Shown here piece by piece: positions 20,157 to 64,000 of a stretch of 64,000 bases of DNA. The stretch comes from Schmidtea polychroa (taxonomy: Eukaryota): assembly GCA_044892525.1 (NCBI GenBank), contig CM097885.1, positions 28,460,001-28,524,000 of the forward strand, in the 5' to 3' direction. The position numbers and the translations under genes were made by a program. The notes below the pieces were generated by a model, which did not search any database, was not told the DNA's origin, and saw only the letters and a program-made list of their open reading frames with translations. Within the stretch, counting starts at the first letter, position 1. The number at the start of each line of letters is the position of its first letter.

Positions 20157-20795
20157 TTACATATATATAGTATGATATTCATTAATCAAAGTTGAACAGG
20201 CTTGACAATTGCGAACATTCTTCTCGTGACACTTAGAACAAACAATTACATGACCACACGGTAAAAACAAAACCGAAACTTGATTTTCTTTACAGATTGA
20301 ACAAGTTAAATACATTTTCTTAACATCGTTCAGTTTTTCCGTTAGTTTATTTTCAATCAAATCGACTTTCGCCATCCATTCATAAATCAATCTACTATAT
20401 CCCGGTTTCAATCTTAAATACATGCAACTCCAAAAGTATTCATTTAGTGTATCGTTGTTTACCACTGTTTTTTCAAAATACATTAAATAACTAAACTTCA
20501 AAATACATTTATCATAATTAAATAAATCAATCAAATATTCAATAGAGGAATGTTTGAAAATTTTTAAAACATTTATGATTTTCTTATCAGTGTAAGCATC
20601 ATGATTATTTATAAAATCTTCAACTATGTTAAAAAATTTCAATGAGCGATTATCTTCAGAATAGGATAGACTTAATCTTTCATTATTTCGAGTTCCTTGC
20701 TATAAATCACAAAAAAATTGATAAAATAATAAAGTTACCAAATACATTTTGTGATTTACACAATCATATTCAACAGTTTTACTTGTAGAAATCAT
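20157..20795 (-). CDS. IAP-type C3HC4 RING-finger protein without BIR domain, ~199 aa; exons 20795-20739 and 20699-20157
   Basis: C-terminal CSICKENQVSVLFLPCGHVIVCSKC...CQAC...TIYM* is the IAP/MDM2-like terminal RING; 39-bp GT-AG intron 20738-20700 removes the in-frame TAG and links to ATG 20795. Confidence 0.8.
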
Positions 20796-41663: not shown

Positions 41664-42735
41664 GGAACCATTGTTAATAATAAAGGAATTTTACCATATA
41701 ATTTTGCCACTAGTCTTGAAGTGCTTTGGTCAACTCCCCAATTACCGCCAATTTGGGATGGTGTTACTGAAGACGAATATTCTATGGCTGAAATTATATG
41801 GAGGGAAACCAACTGTAATAACCTTTGTGATTATATGATGGTCTATCTAAAACTAAATGTCTTTCTTTTAGCTGACTTTTTCCAACAGTTTCGAAATAAA
41901 TCTTTAGCTCATAATCGTCTTGAACCTATAAACTTCTTGGGCATTCCCGGTATGTCTTGGAATTCAGCTCTGATGACTTTAGACGAACCCATCGAGTTGA
42001 TTCAAGACATGGAGATGTTTAATTTCTTTGAGGGTGGTATAAGAGGGGGGTTGACATTTGTAAACAAACATTATGTTAATACAAATGAAAATACTGAACT
42101 TCTATATATCGATATTAATAATTTGTACGGCTGGGCTCTTAGCCAAAAACTACCTAGGGGTGAATTTTCTTGGGTGACGAATGAGCCTGAATTAATTAAT
42201 TTATTAAAAGACTGTGAATCTATTGATCTAGATTCACTTTCATATGGGTATACTATGGAAGTGGATCTAGATATTCCAACATCTTTTCACGATAAACTTA
42301 ATGATTTTCCGGTTGCAGCTGAAAAAATGTGTGCTCCAGGATCTAAAGTGGAGAAGTTGATGCTCACACATTTACCCAAGAAGAACTATGTTCTTCATTG
42401 GAAACTTCTACAACTTTATCTTTCTCTTGGAGTAAAAGTTACTCAAATTCACAGGGCTATCAAATTTCATCAGTCTACTATATTCAAAAATTACATTGAC
42501 ACAAACACCCAACTTCGAGCTGTGTCAACAAATACTCTTGATAAAAACTATTTTAAGCTTCTTAACAATAGTTTATATGGAAAGACAGTCGAAAATTTGA
42601 AGAAACGATTGAACTTGAGATTGTGTAACTCAGCTTCTAAACTGATTACTTATTCCTCTAAACCCACATTTAAAAAGACTTATAAAATAGATCATGACTT
42701 AATAGCCGTTTTATTAAATAAGGATTCAGTGTGTC
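41664..42735 (+). pseudogene. Polinton/Maverick protein-primed family B DNA polymerase fragment
   Basis: KGILPY, EGGIRGG, LYIDINNLYGWALSQKLP (motif A), YFKLLNNSLYGKT (motif B); open frame but truncated before YxDTDS; tail of the listed ORF is unrelated. Confidence 0.9.
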
Positions 42736-42967
42736 AGAGGTATAATTATTATATAAGAGGTCAATTATTACATAAGGGGGTCAATTATGACGAAAATTTA
42801 AAAAATCAATTATTACATAATCAAAAATATAATTACGCCATTTTATATGTAATTACGTAATTTCCAAAATTATGTAACACCATATCACCCCCTAGGGTAC
42901 CCATACACATATTACACAATACTGTATATTTGGCTTGGTTTATACTCCTCACTTCTCACTACTACAT

Positions 42968-43760: not shown

Positions 43761-44050
43761 TTTTATGGGCTACAAATAATAAAATTTTGTTAAAAATAAT
43801 TCTATACGACAAAGTAAACGTAAATGCAAAAAATAATATTTATATCGATTGACGTTTTTCATGTTACATAATTATATCGTATTCATAACTTATATTTAAA
43901 TACAGAATAAAATTATGAATATGCATGCTCTCAATAATGTAGTTAAATTAATTATTATATTATAGATATAGTAAAACTACTAAAATATAAAAGCATTAAC
44001 AGGATTTCAATTTTCAAAATCTGTAACAATGTTGCTGCCTAGCTCTGTAC

Positions 44051-45473
44051 TTATGGTCTGGGTTGTGCTGTATTCCATCGTGTTTCTGACTCACGCTTGA
44101 CTGTGATGGGCACTGCTTCTGTTAGTTTTTCGAGCACCCAAGCGTTTATCCCAACTAGATCTAAAATTTTAAAAACACTTGAAGTGGGAATCTTCTTGAA
44201 CCAGATTTGACACCATTTTCTTGCCATTTGGTCAAATGTATCAATGCCAAATTTAGTTTTATTACAATATCCAACAGTCTCGGGCAAACATTTTCCACTT
44301 TTTTAAATTTTAACAGATTTGTTTTTCGTACTTAGTAAAAGTACCTTCTTTGTTCGCTTGATTTTGTAAATTGTGAGAAGCATTACTTCTGATTTGTATA
44401 AAGATATTGAAAAACGAGGCATACTATCTTTTTTTGTTTGACTAATTTTGGTAATTCCTTTCCGTTGGCGCCTATAGTTCCAAGTTTTTTGGCAAATAGT
44501 TTAGATGGTATTGGTAAACTTGTAAAAAAATTATCTGTACATTGACATTTCATATTATACGGTTCCATAAGTTATGCCAAATTTATTTGGTTTGTTGGGC
44601 ATATATTGTGTGTATTGACATCTAGCCCTAGTAGGGAATAGTTGTTCATCAACGGTAACATTTTCTCTTGGTTTATAACAGTTTTGGCTGTTTTGTATGA
44701 ATTTGTTCCATACTGTTGATATCAACGCGAATTTATCTGTTTGTAATCTTTGACTTATACTTTTCTTATCAAAGCGAAGAAATCGCAAAATGTATATGAA
44801 ATCATTTCTACTTATCACTGCACTTACAAAAATTGGCCCACAGCTTATTGCATAAATAAAAAAGCCTTCAAGTTTCTGGTTTCATATTCCCTATGAACAT
44901 ATAGAATCACAATTAAAGCTACTAATTTTGATTTTGTAGGTATCCATGTATCTCCTAAGACTCGAGAGGTATTTCCTTCTGTACAAGTTCTTATATATTC
45001 TACAATCGAATCATCTATTATCAGTGAAAATGCGGTGCTAAATACACCTTTCATAACATGTCTTGCATATCCTGTACGACAGGATACATATTTGAAAATA
45101 GATTGAATTGGTTTTCTTCCACTACTAGGACCAGCTTGTAATTTTTCCCAAATTGTACAATCTGTTGCAATTTCCTTGTTTATTATTTTAGTCCTCAGAG
45201 CTTGAGAGTTGTATGTTTCTTTCTTTATTGAATATTCAAAATAGTTTCACTGTCATTTTCTGTATCAGTAGACTCGGCGTTAACCTCTTTATCGATAAGA
45301 GCACTACTATATATGGTCTCAAAAGGTATATTATTTTTACCATATGGTCCACTTTCACCACTAAGCAGTTCACCTTCACTATCATATAGGTCATCGTCTT
45401 CAATATCAGAATATTCCATAGGAATGTCATTTATTTTCACCAATGATGTGGCACTTTTCTTCAGTTTATCCAT
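44051..45473 (-). pseudogene. Degenerate piggyBac (PGBD4-like) transposase
   Basis: Frameshifted pieces: LRFLRFD, VTVDEQLFPTRARC, QYMPNKPNKFGI, TDNFFTS, TKFGIDTFDQMA; acidic N-terminus. Confidence 0.9.
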
Positions 45474-47010
45474 TTTGTTGAATTGATGCTAAAAATAGAA
45501 TTTGTGAAAATGACTGGTGACTGTATAAATAGGTAGAACACAGAATTATTTTTTCTTAGTATTAAAATTAAAAAATAAAATTATTCATAATATTAACTAC
45601 TTATATATAGTGTTAAAAAGTTGAAAATTTTAAATGTACTTGATTTTATTTATAAAGTTTATTCTTAACTTGCTTTTTTAAATTTAAGTTTAACAACTTA
45701 AAATTCATTTTCACAATGTTCATTTGCAATAATGAAATTTTCAAAAATTGGTTTCATTCTGCTACTTAGCACATTATTTAGTAATTATTTGTTTTTTAAC
45801 TTTTCATTACTTTTTTGGTTTTATGTTAAATTGATACTAACATCCACTTTAATTTCGATTTTTAGGGTTGAAAGTGTTATTAAATATTGATATTTAACAA
45901 AGAAAAACTCTTTGTATAAAAAGAATCAATATTTGTAATTATTAAATTAAAAATGTCATTCTTTAAATTTTTATTTAGTATTACTTTTTCATTTGAAATT
46001 TCTTTAATGTTAATATTTTTTAAGTTATATTTTATAATTTTATCAATTTTATTGTATAAAAATCTATTATATTTTTTAATATGAGTATTACTGAATTTTA
46101 AAATATTATTGAAATTTTCATAATCGAAACAATGTTTTTCGTTAAAGGAATTTTTATCATTATGGTTATTTTTAAGATTAAGATTTTTATTATTATTATT
46201 ATTTGTATTTAAATTTTTATTATAGATTGAATATATCATTAGATTGAATATTACGGTTATATATATACCTTTACCAGTGCTGACCAGTGTCAATGGTTTC
46301 GTTATTATTATTTTTAATATAGTAATTTGAATTTTTATTGTAATTAAAATAGAATTTCTTAGTTGATTTATATCTTTTAACATAAAAATTCTGATCAGAA
46401 TTACCGTTATTGATAATTCTAGTTAGGATCTTTCTTGCTGAGCAAAAGGTTTTATCTTCAGCATAGGTTTTAAGGTTATGATCCAGTTTAGGTCCATGAT
46501 TAGACTGATGCTTCAAAGTTTGGTTATTGGGAGTCATTCTCTCAATACCATCGGCAGCTACCATGGCATAAGATTTTATATTTGAGTTAAAATCTGTCTT
46601 CTTCCAGGAGGGACAGTGTTCCTCACTAACAGTATCTGCATATGGCTTCTGTGGTTCCTTATTAAGAATGTTAGATGAGGTGTGCCATGTTACTTCCGGA
46701 GCAGTTCTAAAAAATTCATTATTCATTGAAATAAGATCATTAAGTATTTAATTATCCAGTGGAGCTTTGTTGTTTCCATATCTCTCGGAGAGAGTTTTAG
46801 CCTGATAAAAGTGTTTCCATTGATATAAGTACCAAGATTGACGGATTTTTGTCCAGTGCTATGAATGTTATTTAGAAGTGATTCTTCTGAGCACTGGGAA
46901 ACGGCGGGAGAATTTGAATAAAATCTTTTTTTGAAATACATGCTTAAATTTTTAGGGTTGAAAGTGGAAAATTTCAACAATTTTATTGAGACTCTAATTA
47001 CATTAACACC

Positions 47011-47301
47011 TTATTGTTCGTGAGAGATGTTGGGTTGCGGTGACCTTGGTTCGACCTGGCGCTCTTGTTCGGCCATCCAGAGTCGCTTCAAGCGCTCTCT
47101 GCCATCCCGACCTAGCCTCTTACTCTTGGACTTTCCTGGCTTAGCTGTACGGATTTCTGTCAGCTCCTTGGACATTGGGCGAACTGCTGAAATAACTTGC
47201 TCGTCAATGGCCTTCTGGTTTAGTTGCGTTTCCATTGCGCGAATTTGTATTTTCAGCGCGAGGATTTCGGTTTTGTCTGCTGCGTTTGAGTCAATTTTCA
47301 T
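47011..47301 (-). CDS. Orphan-family ORF (5'-truncated), coiled-coil plus basic tail
   Basis: ILALKIQIRAMETQLNQKAIDEQVISAVRPMSKEL aligns with IKALRLRIRQLETQGNQAAIDRAVIDQVRLVAIEM (62186) and VVIAKIRPMSEL (60896). Confidence 0.55.
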   Translation of the reverse strand: MKIDSNAADKTEILALKIQIRAMETQLNQKAIDEQVISAVRPMSKELTEIRTAKPGKSKSKRLGRDGRERLKRLWMAEQERQVEPRSPQPNISHEQ

Positions 47302-48374
47302 GTGATACTTCTTGCATTTGTTTTGTTTTATTTCTTAATTTAAATTTTTATTTTCTGTTATTTTTACTTTTAATTATTATTGTTTATTTGATGTTACATA
47401 TTTTTATTTAACTAAACTTAATGCTTAAAGATTTGGTCTAGAATTCAGTTCTAGCCCAACACTTTGCTTTTTATATTGGTGTTTTCGTTATGAAAAAAAA
47501 TCAAAAACGTCGATGCACGTTGTATGTGGCTTCTTTTAAAAATAAAAATCTGAAATAAGAAAAAAATTTACATTCTAGATTAGATTACTTAAAGCTGTAT
47601 ATTTAGTTTTCTCATAATAAATTTATCGACTTCATTTCTCTTTAGGTCTTCTTTTGATTTTGATGTGTATCTCGATAAATACGATCTTGTCGCTACTGCA
47701 ATTCCACTTGGAACATTTTCTGATATTGATAATGAATTTGATCAAGAAATTCTACTTTATTCTATAAAATATAATTCTAATTAGTTACGTTCTTTCTCTT
47801 TTATTGTTTATAATAGGTTGGGATTTCATTAATTAACATTCCATAAAATTAATTAAAATTCGATAAACAAATTAAAGTGCAAAAATTGATTTAAAATTTG
47901 AAAAATCAATATTAGCGGGGAAAATATGGGCAGTGGGTGGGTTGTTAGTGGGGAAAACTTGCATGATTTTATACGTTCTGCTCTATCGATGCTCTCCTCA
48001 TATCCACCTGACCATCACCACTTCAAATAATTTTTTCATTTAACTACTAAACGCCCGCCACAAGCGACGTTAGTATTGGGATTTAGCGGGTGGCTGTCAA
48101 ACAATGATGAGCTTAACCAAAAACTAGTTAAAACAATCAGACTGTTGATCACATAAAATTACTACAAGATAAAGACCAAAAACAATATTTTTAACAACAT
48201 TTATTTATTAAAAATCTCCATCTAAAAAGGCTGAACTGGGAATCGGTATCCCCAGTAATGATGTTAATTTCGCAGTCGAATTCGTTTCGATATTTTTGTA
48301 CATCCTAAATTTAGATAGATCCAGTACAGATTGACTAATGTAACTGAGTCTATTCAAACACACCGATTGATTAT

Positions 48375-48872
48375 TGCTGGGGTGCTACTCGGTTGACTCC
48401 AACGACTTTTAAGTCCTGTCTAGAGGATGATAGCCCATTACGTTAACGTAGTTCACAATTCTGTCAACCCGGAGTAGAGTTCCACACGATCTGCACTCCA
48501 ACATAATACCCATGAATTACTTCATCTTGGTCCTGTATTATGCCGGCGAGACGCCAGAAAGCAGGTGAGCCCCTACCTTAGGACTACTCCTTTCTGAGGC
48601 CTCGACTTCCTTTTTCCCTGACTGCCGATAGAAGGTCTCACGTCTTCTTACTCTACCACTACACTTGACATTTCATCGCGTCTGAGTTTGTTGCGAATTA
48701 TAGCAGATCATACACTATACAAGGATGTTTATCAATCATCTATTCCGTAGAGAAAAATAAAGTCCACCGATTCATAAAGCACAACGCAATAACTTACACA
48801 AAACCGATTTATTAAATTACCAATATACAATAGAAAAATACAAACATAAAGAAGCACAGTATATCACATCGA
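48375..48872 (-). repeat. Conserved 3' module of the orphan-ORF family
   Basis: Collinear with 52832-53322. Confidence 0.85.
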
Positions 48873-48875
48873 ATG

Positions 48876-49399
48876 TGTTGGATACCCGGGAGGAAAGAAA
48901 TTAAAACAACATAACATACGATCATTCTAGCCTGCTCAGTATACCTTCCCAGCATATCCACGATGACTGCCGATATCCCTCATATTTTCCCGTGGTGATG
49001 TCACACGTTGGTTATGCGCACATGGATCGGAGTTCGCTAACAGGTGAGCCCCTATCTTAGGACTACTATTAACTAACTCACGGTTCGGGTTCTAAGGTGC
49101 CGTATAAGGACTTACCCATATTTCTACACACAACTTGGTACGACCCTGGTCCAAGGGGACGACCTTCATCAGATGGTTGCATTCTTAGATGATCATTCAA
49201 TTCAGATGAACCACATAATAACCTCAAATCGACTCGCTAAACGAAGAATATTATATTAAATTCATCAAACACATAGTTGACATCAATATATTACACAAAT
49301 AAATGTTAAGCAGAAAAACACAAATAGAGTTTCAGAGAGTTATGGATCATAATCACGACTATCAGTGAGAATGGAGACGGGAATCGTCGATGAACTGGA
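48876..49399 (-). repeat. 3' module downstream of ORF 49400-50167
   Basis: CAGGTGAGCCCCT...TTAGGACTACT and GACTGCCGAT motifs; terminal stem 48879-48893/48944-48960; ends CCAACA on the minus strand. Confidence 0.65.
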
Positions 49400-50167
49400 T
49401 TACGGGAAGACTTCCCCTTCGGCCAACATCTCGTCGATATCCACGGGTAGCCGGCGATCCACGATAAATTTCGTACTTCCGGCCGGGACTACTCGGAACA
49501 CTTCCTTGGTGGGTATCGAATGTGAAGCTGAGATCTCTCGTATCGTCGATTTAGCGACCGTCAATGATGCCTCTAACGCGGCGATGGCGTTCCTACGCCT
49601 CTGATTCTTTTCGGAACGCGTAGGCCTCTTATGCTTCCGGTATGGCGCTGCCGCTTCTACTGAGGGTTGAATATTTTGGGGCAGAAGAATCGGAGCCAAA
49701 ATAGGGTCCGGCGGACCATTTGTCATGGGCCTAGAGCCCGACAGAACTGGGGCGAGAAGGGGTGGTAATTGAGATCCATGCCCCTTACAGTTGGCCGTTG
49801 ATGTAGAGGTCCCGTATGCCTGATGATGGGTCGGGAAGACATTGGTCCCGTCCTGGATGGGGTATTTACGAACTCTTTTTGCTACTTCTGCTTCTGTATA
49901 GACTTTATGTAGGGCCTCTGATTGGGCTTTAATCGTTAGCCGATGGCATCTACTTTCCTCAAGGAGACTGTCACGGCAGTGCTCCAGGCGTAAGATTTTA
50001 CTTCGTTCCTCCTTCATCTGTGGCGGGGAGAACCACGTACCTTCGTATAGGTCTATACGCTTTTTTAGTGCCCCAATGTAAAGATGTAGTTTCTCGATAT
50101 CCATATTCTTATCAGCACAAGAAAAACACGGGCGAAGGTCCTTGTTAGAGCTGGTAGGTGTAGTCAT
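49400..50167 (-). CDS. Orphan-family ORF, 255 aa (CxxC, coiled coil, EGTWFSP motif)
   Basis: Long ORF in a GC-elevated island; clear paralog of 53375-54124. Confidence 0.75.
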   Translation of the reverse strand: MTTPTSSNKDLRPCFSCADKNMDIEKLHLYIGALKKRIDLYEGTWFSPPQMKEERSKILRLEHCRDSLLEESRCHRLTIKAQSEALHKVYTEAEVAKRVRKYPIQDGTNVFPTHHQAYGTSTSTANCKGHGSQLPPLLAPVLSGSRPMTNGPPDPILAPILLPQNIQPSVEAAAPYRKHKRPTRSEKNQRRRNAIAALEASLTVAKSTIREISASHSIPTKEVFRVVPAGSTKFIVDRRLPVDIDEMLAEGEVFP

Positions 50168-51327
50168 CTAAAGATCAAGAAAATTCGTAACATAATCAAT
50201 AATAATCATTTACGTGGCGTTTATAAATTCAAATGTGAGTTTCGTAGTGACATCAATCATTCCATTCGGTGATCCTCAGCGAATCCTTACCACTCGCAGA
50301 CATTCATACCCATTCAAGCTTGATCGACTCAATCCATGCAAACCAAGAGAAAACGGGAATCATTCCATTGCCTGTATGTGTTGCTGTATTTTGCTTGTCA
50401 TGCTTGGCATCACTAACAGATTTTGTAGATAGATGGAAAATTTAGTCGGAGTTGCAGAAAGAGTGACTTCTATAGTTGCGTGGATCACTTATCACTTTAT
50501 CAGCTGAAAATTTGTTTTGCGACTGTTTTTCTAGCCTGTGTTGATATCGCGATAAAGGCTAACTATCTCGTCTACCCGCTGGCTGTCACTCAACAATCTA
50601 TATGCTGGCTATTTTATCAGAGCATTTCTTGTCCATCTACTGTAGCTAATTCCCGCAAAACAAAACTGACAGATAACTTCTCAAAATCGCCGACGGTAGT
50701 TTTCCTCAGAAATAGGGTAAGTACTGCTATTAATTATCGGAGAATGTTTATATTCCTGTCAAGATTGAGTTGTTATCGATGATAGTGGCTGGTCAAAACC
50801 GATTATCTAGTCCTCTCAGAACCTTATAGATGAGCGAGATTATGGATTTAGTCGCTAATGTCCTTGCGATGCCAAAATTTTGGAAAAATCTCAAATTCCT
50901 GATGTTTAACATGAAAAAAACGTTGGAATTACTCGCGAATCGCAAGGTAACGATCTCTCCCAATGTATGTTCGGACAGTCGGGCTTGCATAAGTAAATTC
51001 AATAATTGTATCAGCCGTCAACAAAGTCGAATCATGTCTACTAAGAACTTCAATTGCAAATTTGATTGGGGCCATAGCCTGAAGAAGTGTTTTTCCAATC
51101 CATTGAAATCGAAATTATTTATCATGTCCAAGTTATACAATGTCAATTCCAATGGTGTTTAACATCCAATGAAGTTCAATGCCATTACCGTGATGTAATT
51201 TGACTTTCTCTTAAAATATGTTTACGAACCGTTGAATTTTTGATAAATTTAACGAGTTTCCGTGCTCTTTTTAGCAATTCATGAAAGTCAATGTTCTCAT
51301 CAAATTGATTGTCAAACTCCATATCTA

Positions 51328-51532
51328 CCGTATATTTCGGCGTATAAGACGACAGTCAAAAAATCACCCTTGAAAATTGTGGGTCGTCTTATACAACGAT
51401 ATAAAAGAAAGTATTACAGTACAGGTAGTTGTATTTATACTACTACAACCGATATATGATAAATCATAAAAATTTGCTCTAATTTTGTACCTCGTCTTAT
51501 CTGACGGTCGCCTTATACGCCGAAATATACGG
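51328..51532. mobile_element. pogo/Tigger-type MITE
   Basis: ~26-bp TIR CCGTATATTTCGGCGTATAAG(A/G)CGAC; TA TSD. Confidence 0.9.
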
Positions 51533-51543
51533 TAATTCGTGTT

Positions 51544-51850
51544 TGGTGCCTGGGGGTGTGCCATCCAGGTGTAGAACATCTAGGGGTGAGACTGAAGCTA
51601 TTTATGGCTCTTTCCCAGACACTCAAGGTGATTTGTCAATATATCTCCCTCATGTGTGCCCATGACGAGTCATGTTGGTACTGCACACATAGGTCGGAAC
51701 CTGTGAGGAAGTGAGGCCCTGTGTCAGGACTACTCCACACAGCATTCGCAGTTCGGGTTCTTGAATGCCGTCAGAAAGACTTACATCGAGCGGTACTTGC
51801 TTCTGGTCCAGGCGAGGATATTCAACACGATCTTGAGAATTATAATCACA
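51544..51850 (-). repeat. Isolated 3' module of the orphan-ORF family
   Basis: GTGAGGCCCT...AGGACTACTCC and GTTCGGGTTCT..GCCGT..GACTTAC shared with 49040-49115; ends GCACCA on the minus strand. Confidence 0.65.
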
Positions 51851-52831
51851 TATTCGGAGGATGAGGAGACAACAAATCATATTTATACGTTTATTTTATT
51901 TGAACGTTATTAGAGACATCCAATAGAATACTAATACAAGTATACACCTATAGTGTTATTGCAATAGTGATCAATAATTAACTTTATGACATCACTTTCA
52001 TTGACAGGAATCTTAAATCAATATCGCTGAATAGATTTTCTTATATAATTATTTCTAGTTAATGCGAGGATAGTTATACCGTCAGTAGCTAAATCTGACA
52101 CAATTTCATTTAATGATTGCTTTGAACATAATTCAGCATTGTTTTCATTTTCTTATTTACTGGCTGATATATCTTGCGTATCTTCATCTTCGACAAAAAT
52201 TACGAGATTTCAAATGGTTTCTCAAAGAAGTGTATGATCCTTTTGAGCATTGATTTTCGACAATGATGACAAATACCGCTAATTTCCTTAGTAACTTTAT
52301 CTTCAATTTTTGGCGCATATTCCGAAATCACGTCTGAAAAAATTAATTAAATAAGAATGCTACACAAAGTAACAACATAATTATCAAATACTTACTTGCT
52401 TAATCTCGTGTTTTATGCAAAAATTAAATATAAATAGCTATCACAACTGAAAAACTTGAATTATTCAAATTTATTAAAAATATCAGTATTTTGATAATTA
52501 CTTAACCATTCGGAAAACTATTAGATATAGCCATTAACTTGACAAATTTTCCCTCAATGGCAATAATTTAAAAATTATAAATTTTATTTCAATATTTTTT
52601 ACAAATTTAATTTGATTAACGAATCAAGTGACAATTATTTAAAAGATTTTAGTTTATTAATATTTATATAAACCAGCGGTTCTTGAAATTATTGAATATC
52701 GGGACAAAAAATTTCTTGGCGGACCCCAAAGTTCATTCATCAATAAACCAATTCAGACAGTGTTTATAAGAAAAATTAAAATTTATTTACTGTATTTTTT
52801 ATAATTCTCTGAGATACATACAATATATAAA

Positions 52832-53322
52832 TGCTGGGGTGCTACTCGGTTGATTCAACTGACTTTTAAGTCCCGTCTAGAGGATGATGGTCCGTTACAC
52901 TAACGTATTTCATCTTTCTGTCAACCTTGATTAGAACTTCACACGATCTACATTCCAACATAATACCCATGACTTCTTCATGTTGGTACTTTATTATGCC
53001 GGCGAGACACCAGAAAACAGGTGAGCCCCTGCCTTAGGACTACTCTTTTCTGAGGCCTCGACTTCTCTTTCCCTGACTGCCGATAGAAGGTCTTACGTCT
53101 TCCTACTCCTCGACACTCGACGTTCCATCATTTTCTGAGTTCGTTGCCAGTCCTACCCTATTCAAAGATTTCAGTCAACCAAATTATCCCTTGCTGGTGG
53201 TAGGGAAAAAGAAAATAACAACAGACGAGACAAAACCCAATGATTTAAACACAAATTATTTATTCAATTTTCAATATCCAAGAGAAACATAGATACTACA
53301 AGCAAAATAGTTCATCACATCC
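52832..53322 (-). repeat. 3' module downstream of ORF 53375-54124
   Basis: AATAAA on the minus strand near 53260, then conserved ~320-bp block ending CCCCAGCA. Confidence 0.85.
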
Positions 53323-53374
53323 GATCAATTGCAAGAGTTATGACTAAAAACATCAGCCTGTATAAGGAACTTGG

Positions 53375-54124
53375 TCACTTTTCCCATTCAGTTTCCGCTA
53401 ATAATGCCTCTAGGTCGAAAAATTCGGACGCATTCTCCTCCCACGTGACGCCAGCCGCGGAGATAATACGCTCTGAGATTCCGGTGTTCACGCTGTTTGC
53501 AGGAGCAACACTACCTTCTATTGATTCAACCACTGAGCCTCGCGTCTTCTCCTTTGCTGCAATTCTTTCCTTCTGCTTTCGTTTCCGTTCAGCTCGAGAT
53601 AGCTGTCGCCATTTGGGCTTAGAAGAGGAATCGATAATGGGGGTGGCTTTAGATTTGGAAGCAATCTTTTGATTCACTTTGCTGGTGCCCGTACAGATTA
53701 CGTCATTAGATTTGGGCGAGAGCTCCGCCTCCACACACCCCTGGCATGATTTCTCCGATGTACGCGGTCTATCAAGAGGTTGATCGTGATGCGTGGGGAA
53801 TACATTATCCTCCTCAATGATCGGAATGCTTACGAACTTTCGCGTTGTTGCAGCTTGTAAGTAAACCTTATGAAGGGCCTCAGATTGCTCCTTAATAAGA
53901 ATACTTTGAAATATACTTTCTGCGATCAGGCTATCACGACAGTGTTCGCTTCTATACAATTTCTTTTTCACTTCCTTCATCTGCACTGGACTAAACCAGG
54001 TGCCTTCTAATTCGTCGATCTTGCGTTTAAGAAGTCCGATTTGTGTCTGTAGTCCCTTGATGGCTACATTCTTATCTGCACACGAATAACAAGGCTTGAG
54101 AACATTCTTGGCGACTGGATTCAT
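53375..54124 (-). CDS. Orphan-family ORF, 249 aa
   Basis: LKPCYSCADKN...LKRKIDELEGTWFSPVQMKE...EHCRDSL...QSEALHKVY...NVFPTHH shared with 49400-50167. Confidence 0.75.
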   Translation of the reverse strand: MNPVAKNVLKPCYSCADKNVAIKGLQTQIGLLKRKIDELEGTWFSPVQMKEVKKKLYRSEHCRDSLIAESIFQSILIKEQSEALHKVYLQAATTRKFVSIPIIEEDNVFPTHHDQPLDRPRTSEKSCQGCVEAELSPKSNDVICTGTSKVNQKIASKSKATPIIDSSSKPKWRQLSRAERKRKQKERIAAKEKTRGSVVESIEGSVAPANSVNTGISERIISAAGVTWEENASEFFDLEALLAETEWEK

Positions 54125-57100
54125 GATCGTTAGCTATAATAGAAAAAATAGAGAGTAACTATCAATAATCTACTTCATCCGTCAACAGATTGTACATAAA
54201 AATAAGCATTAGCTGTCTTATGGTCCATTTGATTCACCTATAAAGTTTGCGCAATCATCAGGACAACCCTTTACCGACAAGGGAAACTCACCCCCCACTA
54301 GCATAATTTTATATTGAAAAATAAAAGGTAAAATCTTATGGCATCCCCCCATAGTTATCTAAATTATTTGCAAGAAAATTGGAAATACGCACGAATAGTT
54401 ATTGGAATTAATTTCATTTACATCCGATGGGGAATAGGCATATATTAAGATCAGTTAATAGCAAAATGAGATATGCAGAAATGTAAATTAAATCAATCCT
54501 TATTCATTCCTATCTTGGATCATCAAATAATAAACACTTTAATTAGGAAAGAAATAGATTAGTTATTCTCAATGTGACACTTCAATTATCTCTAGCTATA
54601 ACTGGTTCATAGTCTGTATGTTAGCAAAGATAATAGTTTGCGAATCCACCCATTGAAATCAGCTGTTTGTCGTACATGCACTTTGTAGCGAATTATGTCA
54701 TCGGTGACGTGAAGGTGGAATCAAAAGAATTTAAAGTGAATAGCAAACTAGTGTTTAGCCAGCCTGCTGATAACGCTGTGGTGGTTCTCAGACACTATTT
54801 GATGACTGTTCATTATCTCGATATTTGAATTCAAGTGCACGACAAAATAAGCTTATCTCGATAATTTCATGCGGTTATTCACATGGATCGATTCATGGCA
54901 TTCGATACTCATCAGACGGGATGGGTGGTGTCATCCCAACCATGTAAACTAGACTATGTATATCATATCAAAAATTTGTCATGTCGCATGTGCTTTTACT
55001 CGCTCTAAGTGCTTTTCTCATGGAGTATTTTCGCATCTTATTAATATGCAAGTCTCACAGCGGGATGATCAACTATCATAAAATCATGGAAATTATCGGT
55101 GCCTCGTGACTATGCAACTGTTCTGTGGATGTATTTTCGCAGCCTGCTGTTCCTCGAGCGTGTATCGACTTAAATTGTAATTGTTCAGAAAGAAACGTGC
55201 TCCTCGTGGAATCACATGCTGGCTACTCAATGATCAGTTCTAGCTTACGATGTGCTGAGTACTATCCACAGGTATGACAATGGATCATTTTCGAAAGTAA
55301 CTTTAGTTTTCCGTTTTGTTGTTCAAGAATAAAATGTACATAATTGTTTTTCGCATTTATTTTCGAATATCTATATCGTAAGGAGACGATGAAAAATGGA
55401 CTTATACTAATTTAGATTATTCGAGGAGAATATGAACGGTGAGACAGATCTTATAGGTTTTTGGTGAATTAAAAAAAATGGAAATAAATTTGATGTTCGT
55501 GCGGTGATACTAGTGTGAGTGATGGGAATTGGATGAGACTCACATTGTGCTATTACTTACGAGAATATCCTGAATCAAATATAGCCCCGACGACATCTAT
55601 TTTCGAAGTAATGACTAAATACAATTCATCATAACTGAGCTTTGGTACTTTTACTTATGTGATGGGATGGTTAAGGTGAAGTGACGAATTTTGCGCGAAT
55701 TTTTCAAAGGTAGAGCTAGTCTAAGATCGGTTAAGAAACTTCTGATTACGACAAATGTGCAACACCCTCAATCACTGTGTAGGCCTACTCATGACACATC
55801 CTGCCTCCTACCTCTCAATAGTACGACCGCTTTTCCAATACTCTACATTGACTTTATTTTCACAACAGTATCTCCCACTAGTTTAGGCGCATCTTCAGTG
55901 ATGGACTTGTGGGGAAGCCCCCACATTTCGGCCCGAATCAGCTGCGTGACTGAAATGCTCCGTACCCACCGGCTGAGCACCCGAAGGCCCCTCACACCAT
56001 GGTATGAAACATTTCAGCTCCACGTTACTCAGTGAATTTTTATTAAAGCATGAAAACATAAAAACCTAAAAATATAAAACTCGCATAAAAAATGGTTACT
56101 AATAATTTCATCATAAAAATAATTATTTAATTACATCGAGTGAAAAGGAGAAATGTTTTCAAAATTTTTAATTTTACATCCAAATATTACAAATAGTTAT
56201 TTTCATAAATTACTTAATCATACCACATTATAAAGAAAAACAAAAATTTACCAATATATCCGTTCAAGATTTCTTGATAAGTAAAATCAAATTCTGAAGT
56301 CCTGTTAAATAGTAATTCGAATGATCTGTGGTCTGAATCGATTTCTTCTATTTCTCCTAGATTATCCTGATAACTAATATGTGCGAATGCTAAAGCTGAA
56401 TCGTGGTTTAGTTGACCCTAGATAGTTAATTTGTTAACACTGAAATTTTTGTTTCAGTGCTTACCTTATATACTAATTTTTGCGTGTGTGCGGACCAATC
56501 AAAATTGAGCGCCGCTTAATTATTTGTGTTAATTCAATTTCTATATTTTTTTGCTGATTTTCTTATTTTTTTCTTTGTTTTTATTATATTTTTATTTATT
56601 TTCTTAATTTTCTTATTAACTACTTGATTTTTATGTTATTTTCCTCATTATTGCAGTTTTTCTTATCTTAATTTTTTTTGTTTTAATTTTCATTGCCTTA
56701 TTTATTATTTCTTCTTTATTATGTCTTATTTTATTTTTAATTTTTAGTTTATTTTTCCTGATTTGTTTATCATGTTTGTATTATTTCTTAATGTTACTTT
56801 CTTATTTTTTATTTCAATTCAGCCCAACATAAAAAACAAATAAAATAAAGTGTTGGGCTAGAACTGACTTCTAGACCCAAATTTTTAATTGTGACCGAAA
56901 TATGTAGGTACACAGCATGCAAAAAGCAAAAAGTATAGTTAAATATTGAAAACTACACCAAATAAACAATAGTAATTAAAGGAAAAAACAACAAAAACCT
57001 AAAACACAGAAATTAAATAAAAGTTATACAAAAGCAAGAAGTTATGCAAAATCTAACTCAAAAATAACCAAGTAAACATAGAATTACAAAAAGCAAACTC

Positions 57101-58379
57101 GAATAACTTAAAAGACGATAAAAACAGTAAAAAGATTTCAGAAAAACCCAGAACATTCCATAAAATGGCGACGACCATCACAACGGCCATCTAGAACAAC
57201 AAAAGTTAGAGAAAATAAATAAATTAGTATTAAAAATAAAAAATCTTAAAAGAAATTCATAAAAAAGCAGTTAAAATGAAAATTGTATTAAAAAAATAAA
57301 ATAGAATGTTCTGGAACCGTTCCAAATCCATCATGGACGTAAAATTAATGAAAAATAATTAGAAAATAAAAATTTAAAAATAAAAACAAAAATTATAGCA
57401 CTAAAATTTCCATTAAAAATATCAAAATCACGAAATAGAAAATTCTGGAATAAAAAGAATTCGAGTTTGTTTTAATGCATCAATACATACACGTGTACAA
57501 AATAGGTATATATACCGACGCATTTTAGTCACAATTTAATCTTTTTGTATGCCAAAAATTTTCATCGAAAATCTAATTGACACCGAGAGTAAGAATTTGT
57601 TGATTATATTTATTTTATGATTGTTCTTTTATCATTATAGTTCATTTTATTAATTATATTTTTATCCTTTTTTCATATTTGATTATTACTGAACCAGAGT
57701 GACTAGCGTCGTCGTGAATGGGTAGCATCCGCGACGCTGATCAGTCTTGTTTTCAACCAGTAGCCACATGCACAATTTTTGGGTCTACGACCCCACATGC
57801 ATAAATATTTTAACATTTTTTATTAACCGGAGGTCGCCACGAACAAATGGTTCTAACCAGGAGTAGGGCGGTAAACCCATACCGGTAGTTTGCATAGTCA
57901 TAGGGACTATGCGGATGACATAAACTGCGGGAAAGTAATCGCGGGAAACATAGCACAATAAGGCCTATCGTACCGTATTCAGTTGAGTCGGGAAAGTAGG
58001 AAAATTTTAATTAATTCGACCTTTCGGTAAACGACATACCAAAAATAAACACTTAATTCTGCTATAGGAAATATATCACTAGGAACATCTAAACGGGAAA
58101 TATCCCAGACTCAAATTAATACAGAGGCTTTCGGTAGTCGGCTAATTGCATAAACTAATATCTAATATTAACAGATTTTAGTACTACTATTCATAATTTT
58201 ATTCAATGTAATTTAGTTCACGTTCAATGTACATTTTTATAAACTAAAATCCCTTCAAAATTTTTATTCTTACCTTTATGTGTATTGAAATTTAGTTGAC
58301 ATAAAATCTTCAAAGATTTTTTTGTGTGCGTCCTAAGAATATTATCAACTTTGGTATCATTACTATTATCATGATTGAT

Positions 58380-58880
58380 TTTCTAAAATTACATTATTAA
58401 AGGGTATATCATTCCCATATAACGGCATATCTAGGTATATTAAACTTTCTTAATACATATTTACATTATGTTTAGAAAATGATAAATTATAAATTTTCTC
58501 AAATGACCCCCGGAATATATATTCATCACCCAAATGTCCTAAATGAACTTATTTTAATATATAATTTTAGATAGTAATATGTTAAAATAATAATTTAGCA
58601 ATTTCCATCTTTAGGATCGTTATTATTATTATTAATTTTCTACAAATTACCTTACTAAAGTGTATATTATTACCATATAAAAGCATATAGGAGTATATCA
58701 AGTTTCCTTAATGTATATCTAACTTATATTATGTTTAGAAAAAGCTAAATTACAAGTTTCTTAAATGAACCCCCCCCCGAAATATACCTCCATTACCCAT
58801 TGCATAAATATCCTAAATTAACTTATTTTAATATATATTTAGAATTGTAGTATGTTAAAAATGACGATTTATAAATTTTC
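58380..58880 (+). repeat. Diverged tandem duplication, ~255-bp unit x2
   Basis: ATTATGTTTAGAAAA, TCCTAAAT.AACTTATTTTAATATATA and TATGTTAAAA each occur twice in order. Confidence 0.75.
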
Positions 58881-60895
58881 CTAAATACCCCTGCCATAAA
58901 TCAACTTATTGTGATATAGAAGGATTACTTATAAATTTTCATAAATATCCCCTTTTCGATTCCCATAGTCCTTAAGGACTACCTAAAAGTATTAGTTTAA
59001 TTTGCTTCGGAACCTAGTTAGCTTACATTACTCTTAGAAATATCATCGTACATCTCAGGGCGAAAGATGAGTTCATAATTTTCCGCAAGTGATTCCCCAT
59101 ATGTGGTAATCCTATACACTACGAATTTATATTTATTATTATCATCATTAACCTTATTGTCATTGTTATTATTAATGTTATTATCATTACTAATATTACC
59201 ATTCTCATTGTTATGATTATTGCTATTATTATTATTATCATTATCTTCGTCATTATTATTGATATTATTATTATAATGAATATTATTATTAATATCTTTC
59301 GTATCATTAATACCATCATTATTAAGGTTATTATTATTACCGCTATTAGTGTTATTACCACTTTTTCACCCTTGTCATTTCCATTATTATTTTCCCTATC
59401 ATTATTATTACATTATTAATCAATTATAAATTTTGTTTTAGCAAAAATTAGTGATTTTGGGATCCCCCTATGTCTAAATTTAGTTGCAAGAATCCTACCT
59501 TATTCACTATATAACCTACTCCAACCAATATATCGATTTTCTTAACGTTACTATTAATAGAAAATTCAAACCGATATTATCGATTTTCTTTTCCTTATAT
59601 AAAAATGTAACCAATAGAACCGATTCTATTTATAGAAATAACCATGCAAATTAAGGGGTGCCCTCGCCGAATTTACCCAGACTAACCGAATGGACAAGAC
59701 ATGCATTCTCGCAAACGAGCCAATCACCATCGACCAAGGCAGCAGGAAACCCTGATCTTTGAATACAACCACCGACAACTTGGCTAATTTAACCCCTGTC
59801 ATTCCAGAAGTAGAATCCATGTATACCAGAAAAGACAAGGGACTTCGCTTAAATTAGGATACATGTTCCGTACAACCATGAACCAGGAACAATGAGGAAC
59901 ATATATTACAGTTATAACCGCTAATTACCTAAAAACTAACAAAATTGTCTAATAACTATTACCTTACACTAAATAAATTATTCAATTAAATGCAATAAAA
60001 GCGAAAAATCATTCAATGAAATCAAAAAGAAAAAGAAATTTTTTTTTATTTTATTTAAGGAATCATTTTAAACACTGTAAAAGCCTTACCGATGATGTGG
60101 GAGGGTGAGTGAAAGGAGAGTCACTCGAAATTCCCTTAAGATCCCACGGCATCGATCCAAAATTGAATAATGAATAGAAATTCCCATCTAAACACTTTAC
60201 AAATTGAGTAAGTCGGCATAATTTGGGTTACCACCAAACGGTAACCTGCCGAATACTCTATCCGATGGAAGTGTCGTGCCCGAAACGGAGGGTTCGGAAA
60301 TCCATTTCTGAAATAAAACGAATTTATCAGAATCAAAATTTGATTTACCCACTGAATAGCAATAGATGATCTGGCCACCTACAACCACTATGGTCAGGGA
60401 TTGCGAAGAGCCGAAATAAATTCGGACAATTAACAATGCCGTTTTCCATAATGGGCCTTAGTAGCATAATTTTGTTGAATAAGAGGGAAAAATTTATTTT
60501 TAAAAAAGGAAACTAATGTGAAATAACAAGTTAAACCTCAAATAAGTTAAACAAATTGTTTCGAATATGTGATTTTAATTTAATTTATGAAATTCTAATT
60601 TTTCTATTTTAATTTTGTCCACCCTTAAGTTGTTAAACCCAATTTACCAATCTTTAATGTATGAACTTAATTTAATTTAGTAATCCGGATCTAATTTATT
60701 AAATTGGATATATGAACCAAATATGGAAATTAATTCGTAAATTAATTTACTTTACCTACAAAATCATTGTCTGTTGAATTGGTTGTATATTATGCTTGAA
60801 TATAAATTGTAATGGGGTGTTTGGACATTTTGGAGTGATCGAACGTAAATAGAAGTACAAAGATTTGTTTTAATATTTTTTTTATCATTACAGTC

Positions 60896-61357
60896 ATGTC
60901 CAATGCTGAATTAAGGAACGTACAGGAAGACCGCTCGTCGACCGACTCGAGCCTAGGAATTACCGGCGAGGGGGCAGACGAAGCCGTTCGATTGAGGGAG
61001 GACGCAGAAATCGCCCGGTTACGGTCCAGATGGATCTGGTACAAGATTCATGATTGGACCTACCAGAATGTGGTCCCGGTGATTCCAAAGGTGGAGCCAT
61101 ATCTCAACCATTCGGCATTGGCTTTGATCGACGCATTAGACGATGCGAAGGAGGCGGTGGTCATTGCCAAGATCCGACCTATGAGTGAGTTGTTCCACCA
61201 ATCGAAGGGGTGCCCCCCAACAACAGCAATTCCGAGGAAGAAGATTCGGCCGGGTAAAGCGGCGCGAGCGAGAATAAGGCAAGCCAGCCAGACCCAATTA
61301 ACTCTCCATTCTACTGGATCAGGGGCTACCCCAAGAGAATCGACCAGGAAACTCTAA
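60896..61357 (+). CDS. Orphan-family ORF, 153 aa
   Basis: GC-elevated ORF; VVIAKIRPMSEL and KKIRPGKAARARIR match VISAVRPMSKEL and SKRLGRDGRERLK of 47011-47301; followed by family 3' module. Confidence 0.65.
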   Translation: MSNAELRNVQEDRSSTDSSLGITGEGADEAVRLREDAEIARLRSRWIWYKIHDWTYQNVVPVIPKVEPYLNHSALALIDALDDAKEAVVIAKIRPMSELFHQSKGCPPTTAIPRKKIRPGKAARARIRQASQTQLTLHSTGSGATPRESTRKL

Positions 61358-61726
61358 GTTGTCCATGTTTTCCGAATAAATCTTTACTGGTGTATCCATG
61401 TCTGTACATTTTGATTTTTTTTTTGTGTTGTTGATTATTGCCAAGGGGACGAAAGAAATCGGACATAGACCTTCTATCGGCAGTCCGTGAACCCCAGTGG
61501 GTACTAGACAATTATAGTATGTTAAGCATGCTCACTTTTTGCTAGAACCCAAACCCTTGATACAGTACCAACGTTGATTGCTCAACGGGTATCAAGTGGT
61601 CAGCTATAAATTGTATTCTGGGTTACGCTGGAAACAGCATGAGGAGGTAAAGATTTTTCAGTACCTGTAACCCACCAAAAATAATAAAATATTTATAACA
61701 TTTAAAATTATGTATATTTAATTTTT

Positions 61727-62130
61727 ACCATGTGAAGGATGGTGTTGCTTTTGTGACACTAGAATTGCAATATTAGGATATGTTTATCCTTAATTCTGGT
61801 TCAACATCCAACCGATTTCGATATTTATTCTTCATGTATAATAGCATCGAGAAAGCTCTTTCAAAATGGTATAAAATGGAAGTAAATATTTAATTGCTTT
61901 TTCAGCTAATGTTGGATATACATTTTTAACTTTCAACCAAAACTCTTCAACAGTATGCTCATTAAAAACCAACCTGTAGGAGCTGTCGCATGATAATTCT
62001 GCAAGTTCATCTTGCTCTGAAATTGTCAAATTTTGTACTTCGATATTTTTGCAACAAAATGGATCTCGAACCCATTCATGGTCTGATGTGGTAGAAGGAA
62101 AATAATTTCTAAAAGATTCTTAACATTTTT
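61727..62130 (-). pseudogene. hAT Buster/Charlie transposase C-terminal (dimerisation) fragment
   Basis: WVRDPF, EQDELAELSCD, EEFWLKVKNVYPTLAEKAIKYLLPF, terminal KQHHPSH. Confidence 0.85.
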
Positions 62131-62185
62131 ATATATTCAATTAAAATCTGAATTTCTTCGACAGACAGTTTGTTATCAGAATTTT

Positions 62186-62554
62186 CTAAAAATTATCCAC
62201 AAATCCATTTTTTTCATTATTGCTGGTGGGTTCGACGTTTCGTCGTCTGGCGATCTCCGCCATCTCGATCGCCACTAGTCTGACTTGATCGATCACGGCT
62301 CGATCGATGGCTGCCTGATTCCCCTGGGTTTCTAGTTGTCGGATTCGCAGTCGTAGTGCCTTTATTTTCACCTGGTCTTGAGTAGCCTGGAGTTGCAACT
62401 GTTGGATCAACCGCATACTCTTCTTCATTTCTGTAGGGTTGAACCAGGTATTCTCCAGTTCTCGACATCGACCCTTGAGTCTGTCGATCCACCTGCGCAA
62501 TTCCTCATTCTGTTTTGCCGCTGTCTCCTTATCTGCCCACAGGTTTTCCATCAA
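62186..62554 (-). CDS. Orphan-family ORF, ~122 aa, 3'-truncated
   Basis: ADK...LKGRCRELENTWFNPTEMK links it to 49400/53375; C-terminal half links to 47011. Confidence 0.65.
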   Translation of the reverse strand: MMENLWADKETAAKQNEELRRWIDRLKGRCRELENTWFNPTEMKKSMRLIQQLQLQATQDQVKIKALRLRIRQLETQGNQAAIDRAVIDQVRLVAIEMAEIARRRNVEPTSNNEKNGFVDNF

Positions 62555-62843
62555 TTAGATCACTAAATAATAATTAGGGTGAGAGGTGATTCCATACCGT
62601 TCGAACTAAATTAATCAATGATCCGCATAGTTCACTCATGTCATTAACTTAACCGATCTATAGAACGTGTTTGGCGACTATTGTAGTTAATTTTCGATAT
62701 TTACGATCTTAGTTAGGACATAGCATCTTAGGAATTAATAATTATGAACAAACACAACTTATTTCCAATATATTGTCACTGAAAAATCGATGAAATGAAG
62801 TACATATTATAATTGTAAATTTATTTTTATACCATATATTCAG

Positions 62844-62846
<3 letters not shown>

Positions 62847-62937
<91 letters not shown>
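62847..62937. repeat. (TA)n microsatellite
   Basis: Direct observation. Confidence 0.95.
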
Positions 62938-62941
<4 letters not shown>

Positions 62942-63763
62942 ATAAGCCACAATAATACTATTCATAATTCAATATTCAATAATACTATTATGCTGGTTAT
63001 AATTATAATTTTTTTTCCTCGACTCCTTACGAATTGATTGTCAATTGATTTAAGTCCGACTATTATATAATTCCGGTTTGCGTTTGCTATAAAATTAATA
63101 ATTGAAGAATTTGTAACTTGAAATTACGGAAACTGAACCTGGCATAAATGTTGACATCTTAATTTCATTAATTTTTAATATTAATTAACCTAAATACTAT
63201 GAATAAAGTAAGGGAATTAGTCAAATCAAGAAGCAGGAGAAATTCATATAGAATTTTATTTCATTATAAACAAATAATAAATTCGATCCAGACTACTCAT
63301 TCTGAGTCGGCCGATTGGTTACGGTGGGACTTCGACTTCGAGGGGGCTGCATTTCCTAAAATACAATAATACGTCATCAAATCCAACACCCTAGGCTTAC
63401 CTTTGGTGCCAATAGCTTGTGACGAACAACAATAATCATCTTACCACAAATATTGGGAACCGAAACCGGGTTTTGTACAAATAAGCCATGACCAAAGCAC
63501 CACCAACGATCTGGGGTTTCCAATTGGGCTGGGAGCGAAATAAGAATGCTATTATCATAATACAATGAAATTTGAACCATGACTATTACTAAAAACAAAA
63601 ATTAGCACAATAAAACAAAGGTTACCATGGTTAAGTTGATTAATTTCATGCCATAAATGCCTAATATGCTCTACCACTTAAGTACAACTCGATTTTTAAC
63701 CTAGAAATGATTTTGATAAATTTATGGATTGATTCTTACCATAGCGTATGATTTTGATAAAAT

Positions 63764-64000
63764 TGGTGGGTTACAGGTGGTCAGACATCTCACCCTTTCG
63801 TGCTGTTTCCAGTGTAACCCAGAATACAAGGTTGATTCTACCAATGGACACCCGATGAGCGATCATCGTTGGTAATGTGTCAACTGGGTGAGTACTCGTA
63901 AAAAGTGAGCGCACTACTTGCACTATAATTGTCGGGTACTCTTTGGGTCCACGGACTATCGATAGAAGATTTGTGTCCGATTTCATTGGTCCTTTGCCTC
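63764..64000 (-). repeat. 3' module of the orphan-ORF family (continues beyond window)
   Basis: Reverse complement collinear with 61461-61677, ending CCTGTAACCCACCA. Confidence 0.85.

What the first reader, a model, noticed from the sequence alone, without database searches (positions are those of the whole stretch)
48375..63821. Seven structured 3' modules all ending in CA-N-CA, several as stem plus (A)CCA
Seen, on the ORF-sense strand: ends CCCCAGCA (48375, 52832), ATCCAACA (48876), GGCACCA (51544), CCCACCA (61677, 63764), CCCATCA (8173). Five close a terminal stem of differing sequence: GGGTTAC/GTAACCC+ACCA with an inner CTG-GAAA-CAG tetraloop hairpin, GTCTGGG/CCCAGGC+ACCA, TGGATAT..GGGA/TCCC..GTATCCA. 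Upstream blocks are shared across subtypes (CTTCTATCGGCAGTC; AGTAGTCCT..AGGG(G/C)CTCAC at 48565, 49044, 51711, 53021). Inference: either R/U5 ends of long LTRs (AATAAA, structured U5, terminal CA) or tRNA-acceptor-like 3' ends used for replication priming.
Basis: partly seen in the sequence, partly recalled or inferred. Interest (0 to 1): 0.75.

Follow-up and report, generated by a model that had tools for sequence, protein, structure and literature searches.

The report
Giant retrotransposon LTR ends, no PPT
The seven "CA-N-CA" modules are the ordinary right-hand ends of long terminal repeats of giant retrovirus-like jumping genes, not tRNA-like tails, but intact copies of these elements lack the purine run that such elements normally use to start their second DNA strand and carry a conserved G/C-rich signal there that likely does this job.

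Summary
The modules are U5/att ends (…CCAACA type) of 1.6–5.8 kb LTRs of Burro-type giant Ty3/gypsy elements. Evidence: TGTTGGG 5′ ends and exact 4-bp target duplications in 14 of 14 solo LTRs and 10 of 10 two-LTR elements with both ends seen; a tRNA-Pro PBS 7–8 nt past the CA (1036 sites); a ~4,790-codon gag–fusion glycoprotein–pol frame. Two listed ends need correction (51540, not 51544; 8173 is a MITE-split copy). The leader is structured: a hairpin with an 8-nt bulge covaries across lineages (11 of 14 pairs); the terminal stem covaries weakly. LTRs carry an ORF under purifying selection. The scan noted these features before on other DNA of this genome. Not noted before: no polypurine tract; 1121 3′ junctions share a hairpin plus GGGYCCCSGAGTG box complementary to the PBS. 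How it primes is untested.

The parts
56851..61677 (+). Solo LTR, lineage A (4,827 bp; TGTTGGG...CCCACCA; flanks AAAG/AAAA, one mismatch in the 4-bp TSD; internal deletion at 61159/61160 relative to relatives)
   Evidence: 92-94% identical over 4.3 kb to solo LTRs L025, L027, L033, L035, L037, L040
52832..56829 (-). Solo LTR, lineage B (3,998 bp; TGTTGGG...CCCAGCA; exact TSD TTTA)
   Evidence: patchy 65-84% matches to LTRs of two-LTR elements L219, L231
48375..48870 (-). 3' fragment of a second lineage-B LTR
   Evidence: 76% to 52832-53321
48876..50360 (-). 3' part of a lineage-C LTR with its ORF, abutting the B fragment; 5' part missing
   Evidence: PBS-linked relative L170; two-LTR relatives L223-226, L235-238
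51540..51948 (-). 3' fragment of a lineage-D LTR (true end CAGGCACCAAACA at 51540)
63764..64000 (-). 3' end of a lineage-A LTR of another subfamily; continues at least 1,152 bp beyond the window
   Evidence: 93% to PBS-linked L210; L214
7692..8173 (+). Lineage-A LTR 3' fragment split by a 288-bp inverted-repeat insertion (7872-8159, 8-bp TSD CCTGTAAC)
61556..61596 (+). Leader hairpin with 8-nt bulge AGTACCAA opposite one G (counterparts in the other modules)
61619..61674 (+). Terminal U5 stem TGGGTTAC/GTAACCCA with inner GCTG-GAAA-CAGC hairpin; 3' arm overlaps the att end
53375..54124 (-). LTR-encoded ORF, 249 aa (coiled coil with TWFxP motif, Arg/Lys-rich segment, acidic tail)
49400..50167 (-). 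LTR-encoded ORF, 255 aa, lineage C
60896..61357 (+). LTR ORF of lineage A, two coding parts fused by a deletion
62186..62554 (-). Isolated fragment of a lineage-A LTR ORF
47011..47461 (-). Lineage-A LTR 5' end (TGTTGGG at 47461) joined by deletion to an ORF fragment

Best explanation
The modules are the U5/att ends of solo or truncated LTRs of Burro-type giant Ty3/gypsy retroelements, whose structured leader likely serves packaging and tRNA-Pro-primed minus-strand initiation and whose second strand would be primed from a conserved G/C-rich junction element in place of the missing polypurine tract. Shown: LTRs run TGTTGGG...CC(A/C)(A/C/G)CA, are flanked by 4-bp target duplications, occur as pairs around 22-25.5 kb interiors with one gag-env-pol frame, and are followed 7-8 nt past the CA by a 15-24 nt match to the genome's tRNA-Pro(TGG). 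Inferred from established LTR-element biology: integrase joins the CA ends (so it would trim 7-8 nt at U5 rather than the usual 2), LTR-LTR recombination left the solo copies (about 20 to 1 in the 61677 subfamily), and the terminal stem sets the PBS up for tRNA binding like retroviral U5 stems. Inferred, untested: RNase H leaves the GGGYCCCSGAG junction RNA as plus-strand primer; its complementarity to the PBS may also pair the two RNA ends; the LTR ORF (basic segment, acidic tail) is a regulator that may bind the bulged hairpin.
For: Sharp ends and no shared downstream DNA in solo copies. 14 of 14 solos with an intact 5' end among 20 fetched have an exact 4-bp TSD. 10 of 10 two-LTR elements with both ends seen have one; LTR pairs 97-100% identical where compared. 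1036 PBS sites; tRNA-Pro confirmed by ARAGORN; 15-24 nt complementarity in 30 of 30 loci. Exact 61677 subtype: 37 spacer-linked copies against 735 in all; two of three followed have full interior and second LTR. Pfam: zf-CCHC, MATH, Monjiviricetes_fusion, protease, RT, RNase H, integrase, ankyrin; TRAF, BIR-RING accessory ORFs, the layout of PMC6431247 section 7. LTR end consensus TGTTRNR...YNYAACA (PMC3601003 passages). No purine run over 4 nt in the last 40 nt before the 3' LTR in 11 of 11 junctions; 1121 junctions share the motif, 0 in the reversed control. Junction-PBS duplex beats all but 0-2 of about 1,800-2,000 interior windows in 6 of 6 elements. Hairpin covariation 11 of 14 pairs, 0 of 500 shuffles reach the score. 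ORF median dN/dS 0.10-0.29.
Against: No PBS-linked copy of the exact CCCCAGCA subtype (0 of 27) or among 20 closest D-type copies; their link to full elements rests on 65-84% relatives. The 61677 copy has a 3-of-4 TSD. Transcription start and poly(A) site are unmapped, so U3/R/U5 borders are assumed. Shuffled junctions match the PBS as well in 4-14 of 300, so the duplex is largely a G-rich/C-rich effect, and lineages C and D have a mismatch in it. Terminal-stem covariation is weak. No direct comparison with the published Burro sequences was possible. Nothing here shows priming, trimming or binding.
Confidence: 0.93

Rival explanations
1. The ends are tRNA-acceptor-like 3' termini (stem plus ACCA) of an RNA that is copied from its CCA end, as in Mauriceville-type retroplasmids (recalled).
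For: Lineage A ends in an 8-bp stem plus CCA; ends are sharp.
Against: Most lineages end CAACA; the 51544 ACCA is a misread; the end mirrors the TGTTGGG start and abuts 4-bp TSDs; PBS and gag-pol follow in intact copies; ARAGORN-type tRNA fold was not tested on the modules, Rfam gives 0 hits at E<=1 in 44000-64000.
Confidence: 0.02
2. The 4-6 kb units move on their own (single-LTR or Ginger-like cut-and-paste units), which would explain the excess of solos and their own ORF.
For: 0 of the first 100 copies of the 61677 terminus are followed by an interior; 0 of 27 for CCCCAGCA; ORF under selection.
Against: 37 copies of the same terminus carry the spacer, 12 of 12 such loci opened have the PBS, and full elements exist; terminal inverted repeat is only 7 bp; the ORF is also in paired LTRs.
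Confidence: 0.04
3. For the junction only: the motif before the 3' LTR is not a primer but a dimerisation, end-pairing or pseudoknot signal, and the plus strand is primed some other way (for instance by a translocated RNA or tRNA piece).
For: GGGCCC/GGGUCC is self-complementary and the hairpin loop GGGAC can pair with downstream GTCCC, with one A-T to G-C swap between subfamilies (read); complementary to the PBS.
Against: It sits exactly where the primer must end to define the LTR start and is conserved across lineages whose RT-IN region is only about 57-78% identical; several listed copies have an A-C mismatch at the swapped pair; it does not end in CCA, so a second intact tRNA is unlikely.
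Confidence: 0.3

Closest known systems
   Same: Over 30 kb, interior up to 25 kb, one ORF of about 4,800 codons with Gag-CCHC, MATH, in-frame fusion glycoprotein, PR-RT-RH-IN, ankyrin; BIR and RING accessory ORFs; thousands of copies.
   Different: That section says nothing on LTR-encoded ORFs, leader structure, PBS spacing or the absent PPT; BCL2-like and dUTPase-like parts were not detected by Pfam here; sequences not compared directly.
Ty3/gypsy (Metaviridae) LTRs in general (PMC3601003, PMC6317226, passages)
   Same: TGTT...AACA short inverted ends, TSD, tRNA PBS, PR-RT-RH-IN order, solo LTRs.
   Different: No polypurine tract; PBS 7-8 nt from the LTR (PMC6317226 looked for TGG 0-5 bp from the LTR; taeniid ta-TRIM has 4 nt, PMC4558846 passages).
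Complex retroviruses with LTR-overlapping genes and leader hairpins (MMTV sag, HIV nef, Tat/TAR, Rex/RxRE; recalled)
   Same: ORF inside the LTR, basic segment, bulged stem-loop near the LTR 3' end.
   Different: No sequence or fold homology found; binding untested; analogy only.

Membership tests
Ty3/gypsy LTR retrotransposon | Two direct LTRs bounded by TG...CA | tested here: met
Ty3/gypsy LTR retrotransposon | Target-site duplication of fixed length | tested here: met
   4 bp in 14 of 14 solos and 10 of 10 paired elements
Ty3/gypsy LTR retrotransposon | PBS complementary to a host tRNA 3' end | tested here: met
   tRNA-Pro(TGG), 15-24 nt in 30 of 30
Ty3/gypsy LTR retrotransposon | PR-RT-RH-IN domain order | tested here: met
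Ty3/gypsy LTR retrotransposon | Polypurine tract before the 3' LTR (usual, 'most' elements per PMC6317226; not strictly defining) | tested here: not met
   longest purine run 3-4 nt in 11 of 11; same motif at 1121 junctions
Burro / GYPSM1 | Total over 30 kb with interior up to 25 kb | tested here: met
   interior 25.3-25.5 kb in lineage A, 22 kb in B and C; shorter 10.9 and 12.3 kb derivatives also seen
Burro / GYPSM1 | Single giant ORF with env in frame between gag and pol | tested here: met
   about 4,790 codons over L104-L106; Monjiviricetes_fusion E 2.5e-68 before protease
Burro / GYPSM1 | MATH/TRAF, BIR, ankyrin, RING cargo | tested here: met
   BIR ORF not matched in B and C elements by tblastn
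Burro / GYPSM1 | BCL2-like and dUTPase-like motifs | tested here: inconclusive
   no Pfam hit at E<=0.01; the paper used HHpred
Burro / GYPSM1 | Sequence identity or RT phylogeny with Burro1-4 | not testable with these tools
   reference sequences not on hand
tRNA-like 3' end replicons | Free 3' NCCA on an acceptor-like stem at the RNA end | tested here: not met
   ends mostly CAACA, followed by spacer and PBS; att end abuts TSD
Known ribozymes / Rfam families | Covariance-model match | tested here: not met
   0 hits at E<=1 in 44000-64000

The most novel reading that the evidence does not exclude
Burro-type elements replicate by a PPT-independent route: a junction element that mimics the tRNA-Pro 3' end pairs with the PBS to close the 30-kb RNA into a circle and supplies the plus-strand primer, integrase trims 7-8 nt ends, and an LTR-encoded basic protein reads a conserved bulged leader hairpin as a Tat/Rex-like switch.
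Probability: 0.25. Interest if true: 0.75.

Novelty: new variant of a known kind. Interest (0 to 1): 0.42.

Why it matters
The finding as written is ordinary: LTR ends of a described family. What matters is the side result. A polypurine tract is treated as standard for LTR elements and retroviruses, and over a thousand junctions of young elements here have none, so this is a natural case for asking what RNase H needs in order to spare a plus-strand primer. It also means PPT-dependent annotation would under-call these elements. The covarying leader hairpin and the selected LTR ORF give testable cis and trans regulators of an abundant planarian-type element.

Tried and rejected
PBS directly after the CA (TGGY within 0-4 nt): 2 hits, both insertions in unrelated DNA; the spacer is longer. 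'Solo-only mobile unit' idea: dropped. Rfam: 0 hits. LTR ORF homologs: no Pfam family at E<0.01; 0 and 1 database hits (the one hit P0001 is a member of the same family); Atlas best score 0.86, below the useful range; AlphaFold model pLDDT 66, pTM 0.36, helical hairpin only; BFVD no match at E<=0.001; the representative-protein search was never run. RNA: no RNA holder listed on record; contigs of four guessed-RNA runs cover mainly 56850-57600 and 61476-61642 and show one poly(A)-like loose end at 57243, but these are the best-conserved parts and contigs cannot place starts or ends, so not used as evidence; the start and end of the RNA stay open. LTR-LTR circle junctions that might show the cDNA ends: 2 hits for lineage A, neither with the spacer. 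Second-tRNA priming of the plus strand: junction lacks CCA and matches tRNA-Pro poorly in C and D. HIV-like purine runs 270-410 nt past the PBS are present in A and C but not seen in B or D; wrong place for a PPT. The motif tally was selected for pairing, so (29 of 30 PBS loci, 18 distinct rows, L121 lacked the motif) was used instead. Rows left out: 12 of 34 cluster representatives from A1 (mostly chimeric or truncated), 1 of 26 C loci not matched and L165 dropped from A5, 5 of 23 D loci not matched; 283 of 497 ORF pairs saturated. Literature: searches gave no paper on Burro PBS, PPT or LTR content (listings only, apart from papers named); the original Burro paper and its supplements could not be read and may describe these features.
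Full report
Observation. The quoted words are at the quoted places. The window is AT-rich animal DNA from a 781-Mb genome. The modules fall into four lineages: A (61677, 63764, 7692-8173), B (48375, 52832), C (48876), D (51540). Copies end sharply at the CA: 20 of 20 for A, and 735 exact copies of that terminus exist against 0 for the reversed control. Two ends were misread. The D module ends at 51540 in ...CAGGCACCAAACA, matching relatives that end in CCCAACA-like words. The 8173 end is the tail of the module at 7692, split by a 288-bp insertion with an 8-bp duplication.

What they are the ends of. Reading 10 kb upstream of 20 A copies, 14 run back 5.3-9.6 kb (longer ones with insertions) to a sharp TGTTGGG start and all 14 have an exact 4-bp target duplication; the other six were truncated, rearranged or not resolved. 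In the window this gives solo LTRs at 56851-61677 (+, 3-of-4 TSD) and 56829-52832 (-, TSD TTTA). The ends fit the LTR consensus TGTTRNR...YNYAACA (PMC3601003, passages). Of 2350 copies of the A start, 13 of the first 100 share an upstream sequence. Four such loci proved to be two-LTR elements with 97-100% identical LTRs and interiors of 25.4-25.5 kb (three) or 10.9 kb (one). One frame of about 4,790 codons holds CCHC knuckles, MATH, a Monjiviricetes-type fusion glycoprotein, protease, RT, RNase H, integrase and ankyrin repeats; accessory frames hold RING, TRAF-MATH and BIR-RING. This is the layout of planarian Burro/GYPSM1 (PMC6431247 section 7, read whole). The host being a planarian is inferred from this, not tested.

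Primer site. The 5' LTR is followed by a 7-8 nt spacer and TGGGGGCTCAGCCGGGA, at 1036 places, complementary over 15-24 nt to the genome's tRNA-Pro(TGG) in 30 of 30 loci. All four lineages have PBS-bearing relatives at roughly 70-83% identity; five more were two-LTR elements with TSDs. For the exact 61677 terminus, 37 copies carry the spacer, 12 of 12 loci opened from that search have the PBS, and two of three followed have a full interior and second LTR. Against: 0 of 27 exact B termini and 0 of 20 close D copies are PBS-linked; 1 of 20 C copies is. With solos at about 20 to 1 this is unremarkable.

Structure. A hairpin with an 8-nt bulge ending CCAA opposite one G lies 110-170 nt before the PBS in 29 of 30 unselected PBS loci. 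On 18 distinct rows 11 of 14 pairs change on both sides, 96.8% of cells pair, 0 of 500 shuffles reach the covariation score and slid controls fall to 29-54%; the rows are related, so this counts few independent events. The terminal stem is kept with different sequence in each lineage but covaries weakly inside them: 0 of 8 pairs in A (sample chosen on that motif), 4 of 10 in C, 2 of 13 in D. Folding z-scores of the window copies are weak. Rfam gives nothing.

LTR ORF. Every lineage sampled has an ORF shortly before the leader. Over an 85-codon core from 47 distinct copies, median dN/dS is 0.10-0.29 in 194 binned pairs; 283 of 497 pairs were saturated. The protein has a coiled coil broken by TWFxP, a basic segment and, in B and C, an acidic tail. 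No outside homolog was found. A regulatory role is inference by analogy to retroviral accessory proteins (recalled).

No polypurine tract. In 11 of 11 3' junctions the longest purine run in the last 40 nt is 3-4 nt. All carry AATTGCGGGNCGCAATT, then GGGYCCCSGAGTG, then 3-5 nt, then TGTTGGG; 1121 junctions match the hairpin-to-LTR pattern, about as many as PBS sites, with 0 in the control. The box is complementary to the PBS: better than all but 0-2 of about 1,800-2,000 interior windows, but 4-14 of 300 shuffles do as well. The plus-strand primer must end near here to define the LTR start (established mechanism), so I take the junction RNA itself as the likely RNase H-resistant primer (about 0.6), with end-pairing or dimerisation as the rival. 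Papers seen: PMC6431247 section 7 whole; passages of PMC3601003, PMC6317226, PMC4558846, PMC8532177, PMC11410931, PMC13238120.

Earlier scan notes, read after my reading was fixed, agree on the leader fold, the LTR ORF and solo LTRs on other DNA of this genome; none mentions a polypurine tract.

Verdict. The finding itself is ordinary: att ends of LTRs of a described family (confidence 0.93). The missing PPT, long PBS spacer, covarying hairpin and selected LTR ORF make it a variant worth a specialist's look. Interest 0.42.

Noticed in passing
G000:C1:130901009 onward (L215-L218): tRNA-Pro(TGG) genes form tandem arrays with a 475-bp unit; 2164 matches to the T-arm/acceptor pattern genome-wide. 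It is the predicted primer tRNA of these elements.
   Followed up: partly
window 56829 and 56851: Two solo LTRs of different lineages start head to head only 21 bp apart.
   Followed up: no
window 7872-8159: 288-bp element with CAGTGG...CCACTG ends and an 8-bp TSD, hAT-like by TSD length (recalled).
   Followed up: partly
L227-L229; L100-L102: Two-LTR derivatives with short interiors (12.3 kb with gag but no pol match; 10.9 kb), both with TSDs; the first has 99.9-100% identical 1.6-kb LTRs, likely non-autonomous.
   Followed up: partly
window 57588 and 60895: Donor-like GAG|GTAAG at the end of the conserved first 720 bp of the LTR and an acceptor-like TTACAG right before the ORF's ATG suggest a 3.3-kb intron inside the LTR.
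   Followed up: no
G000:C1:39424155-39471595; C1:224478941-224550923: PBS junctions recur at 15.8-kb and 36-kb spacing, suggesting tandem arrays of elements.
   Followed up: no
window 41664-42860: 398-aa open frame that reads like a family-B DNA polymerase fragment (by eye; no Pfam hit).
   Followed up: no
window 20157-20699, 28316-28777, 31243-32133, 2244-2837: RING-finger ORF inside a long inverted-repeat region (about 13.7-27.6 kb), ISXO2-like transposase, protein kinase and GPCR exon.
   Followed up: no
window 51326-51358 and 51502-51534: 33-bp inverted repeat pair next to the D fragment, inside a decayed transposase-like stretch.
   Followed up: no
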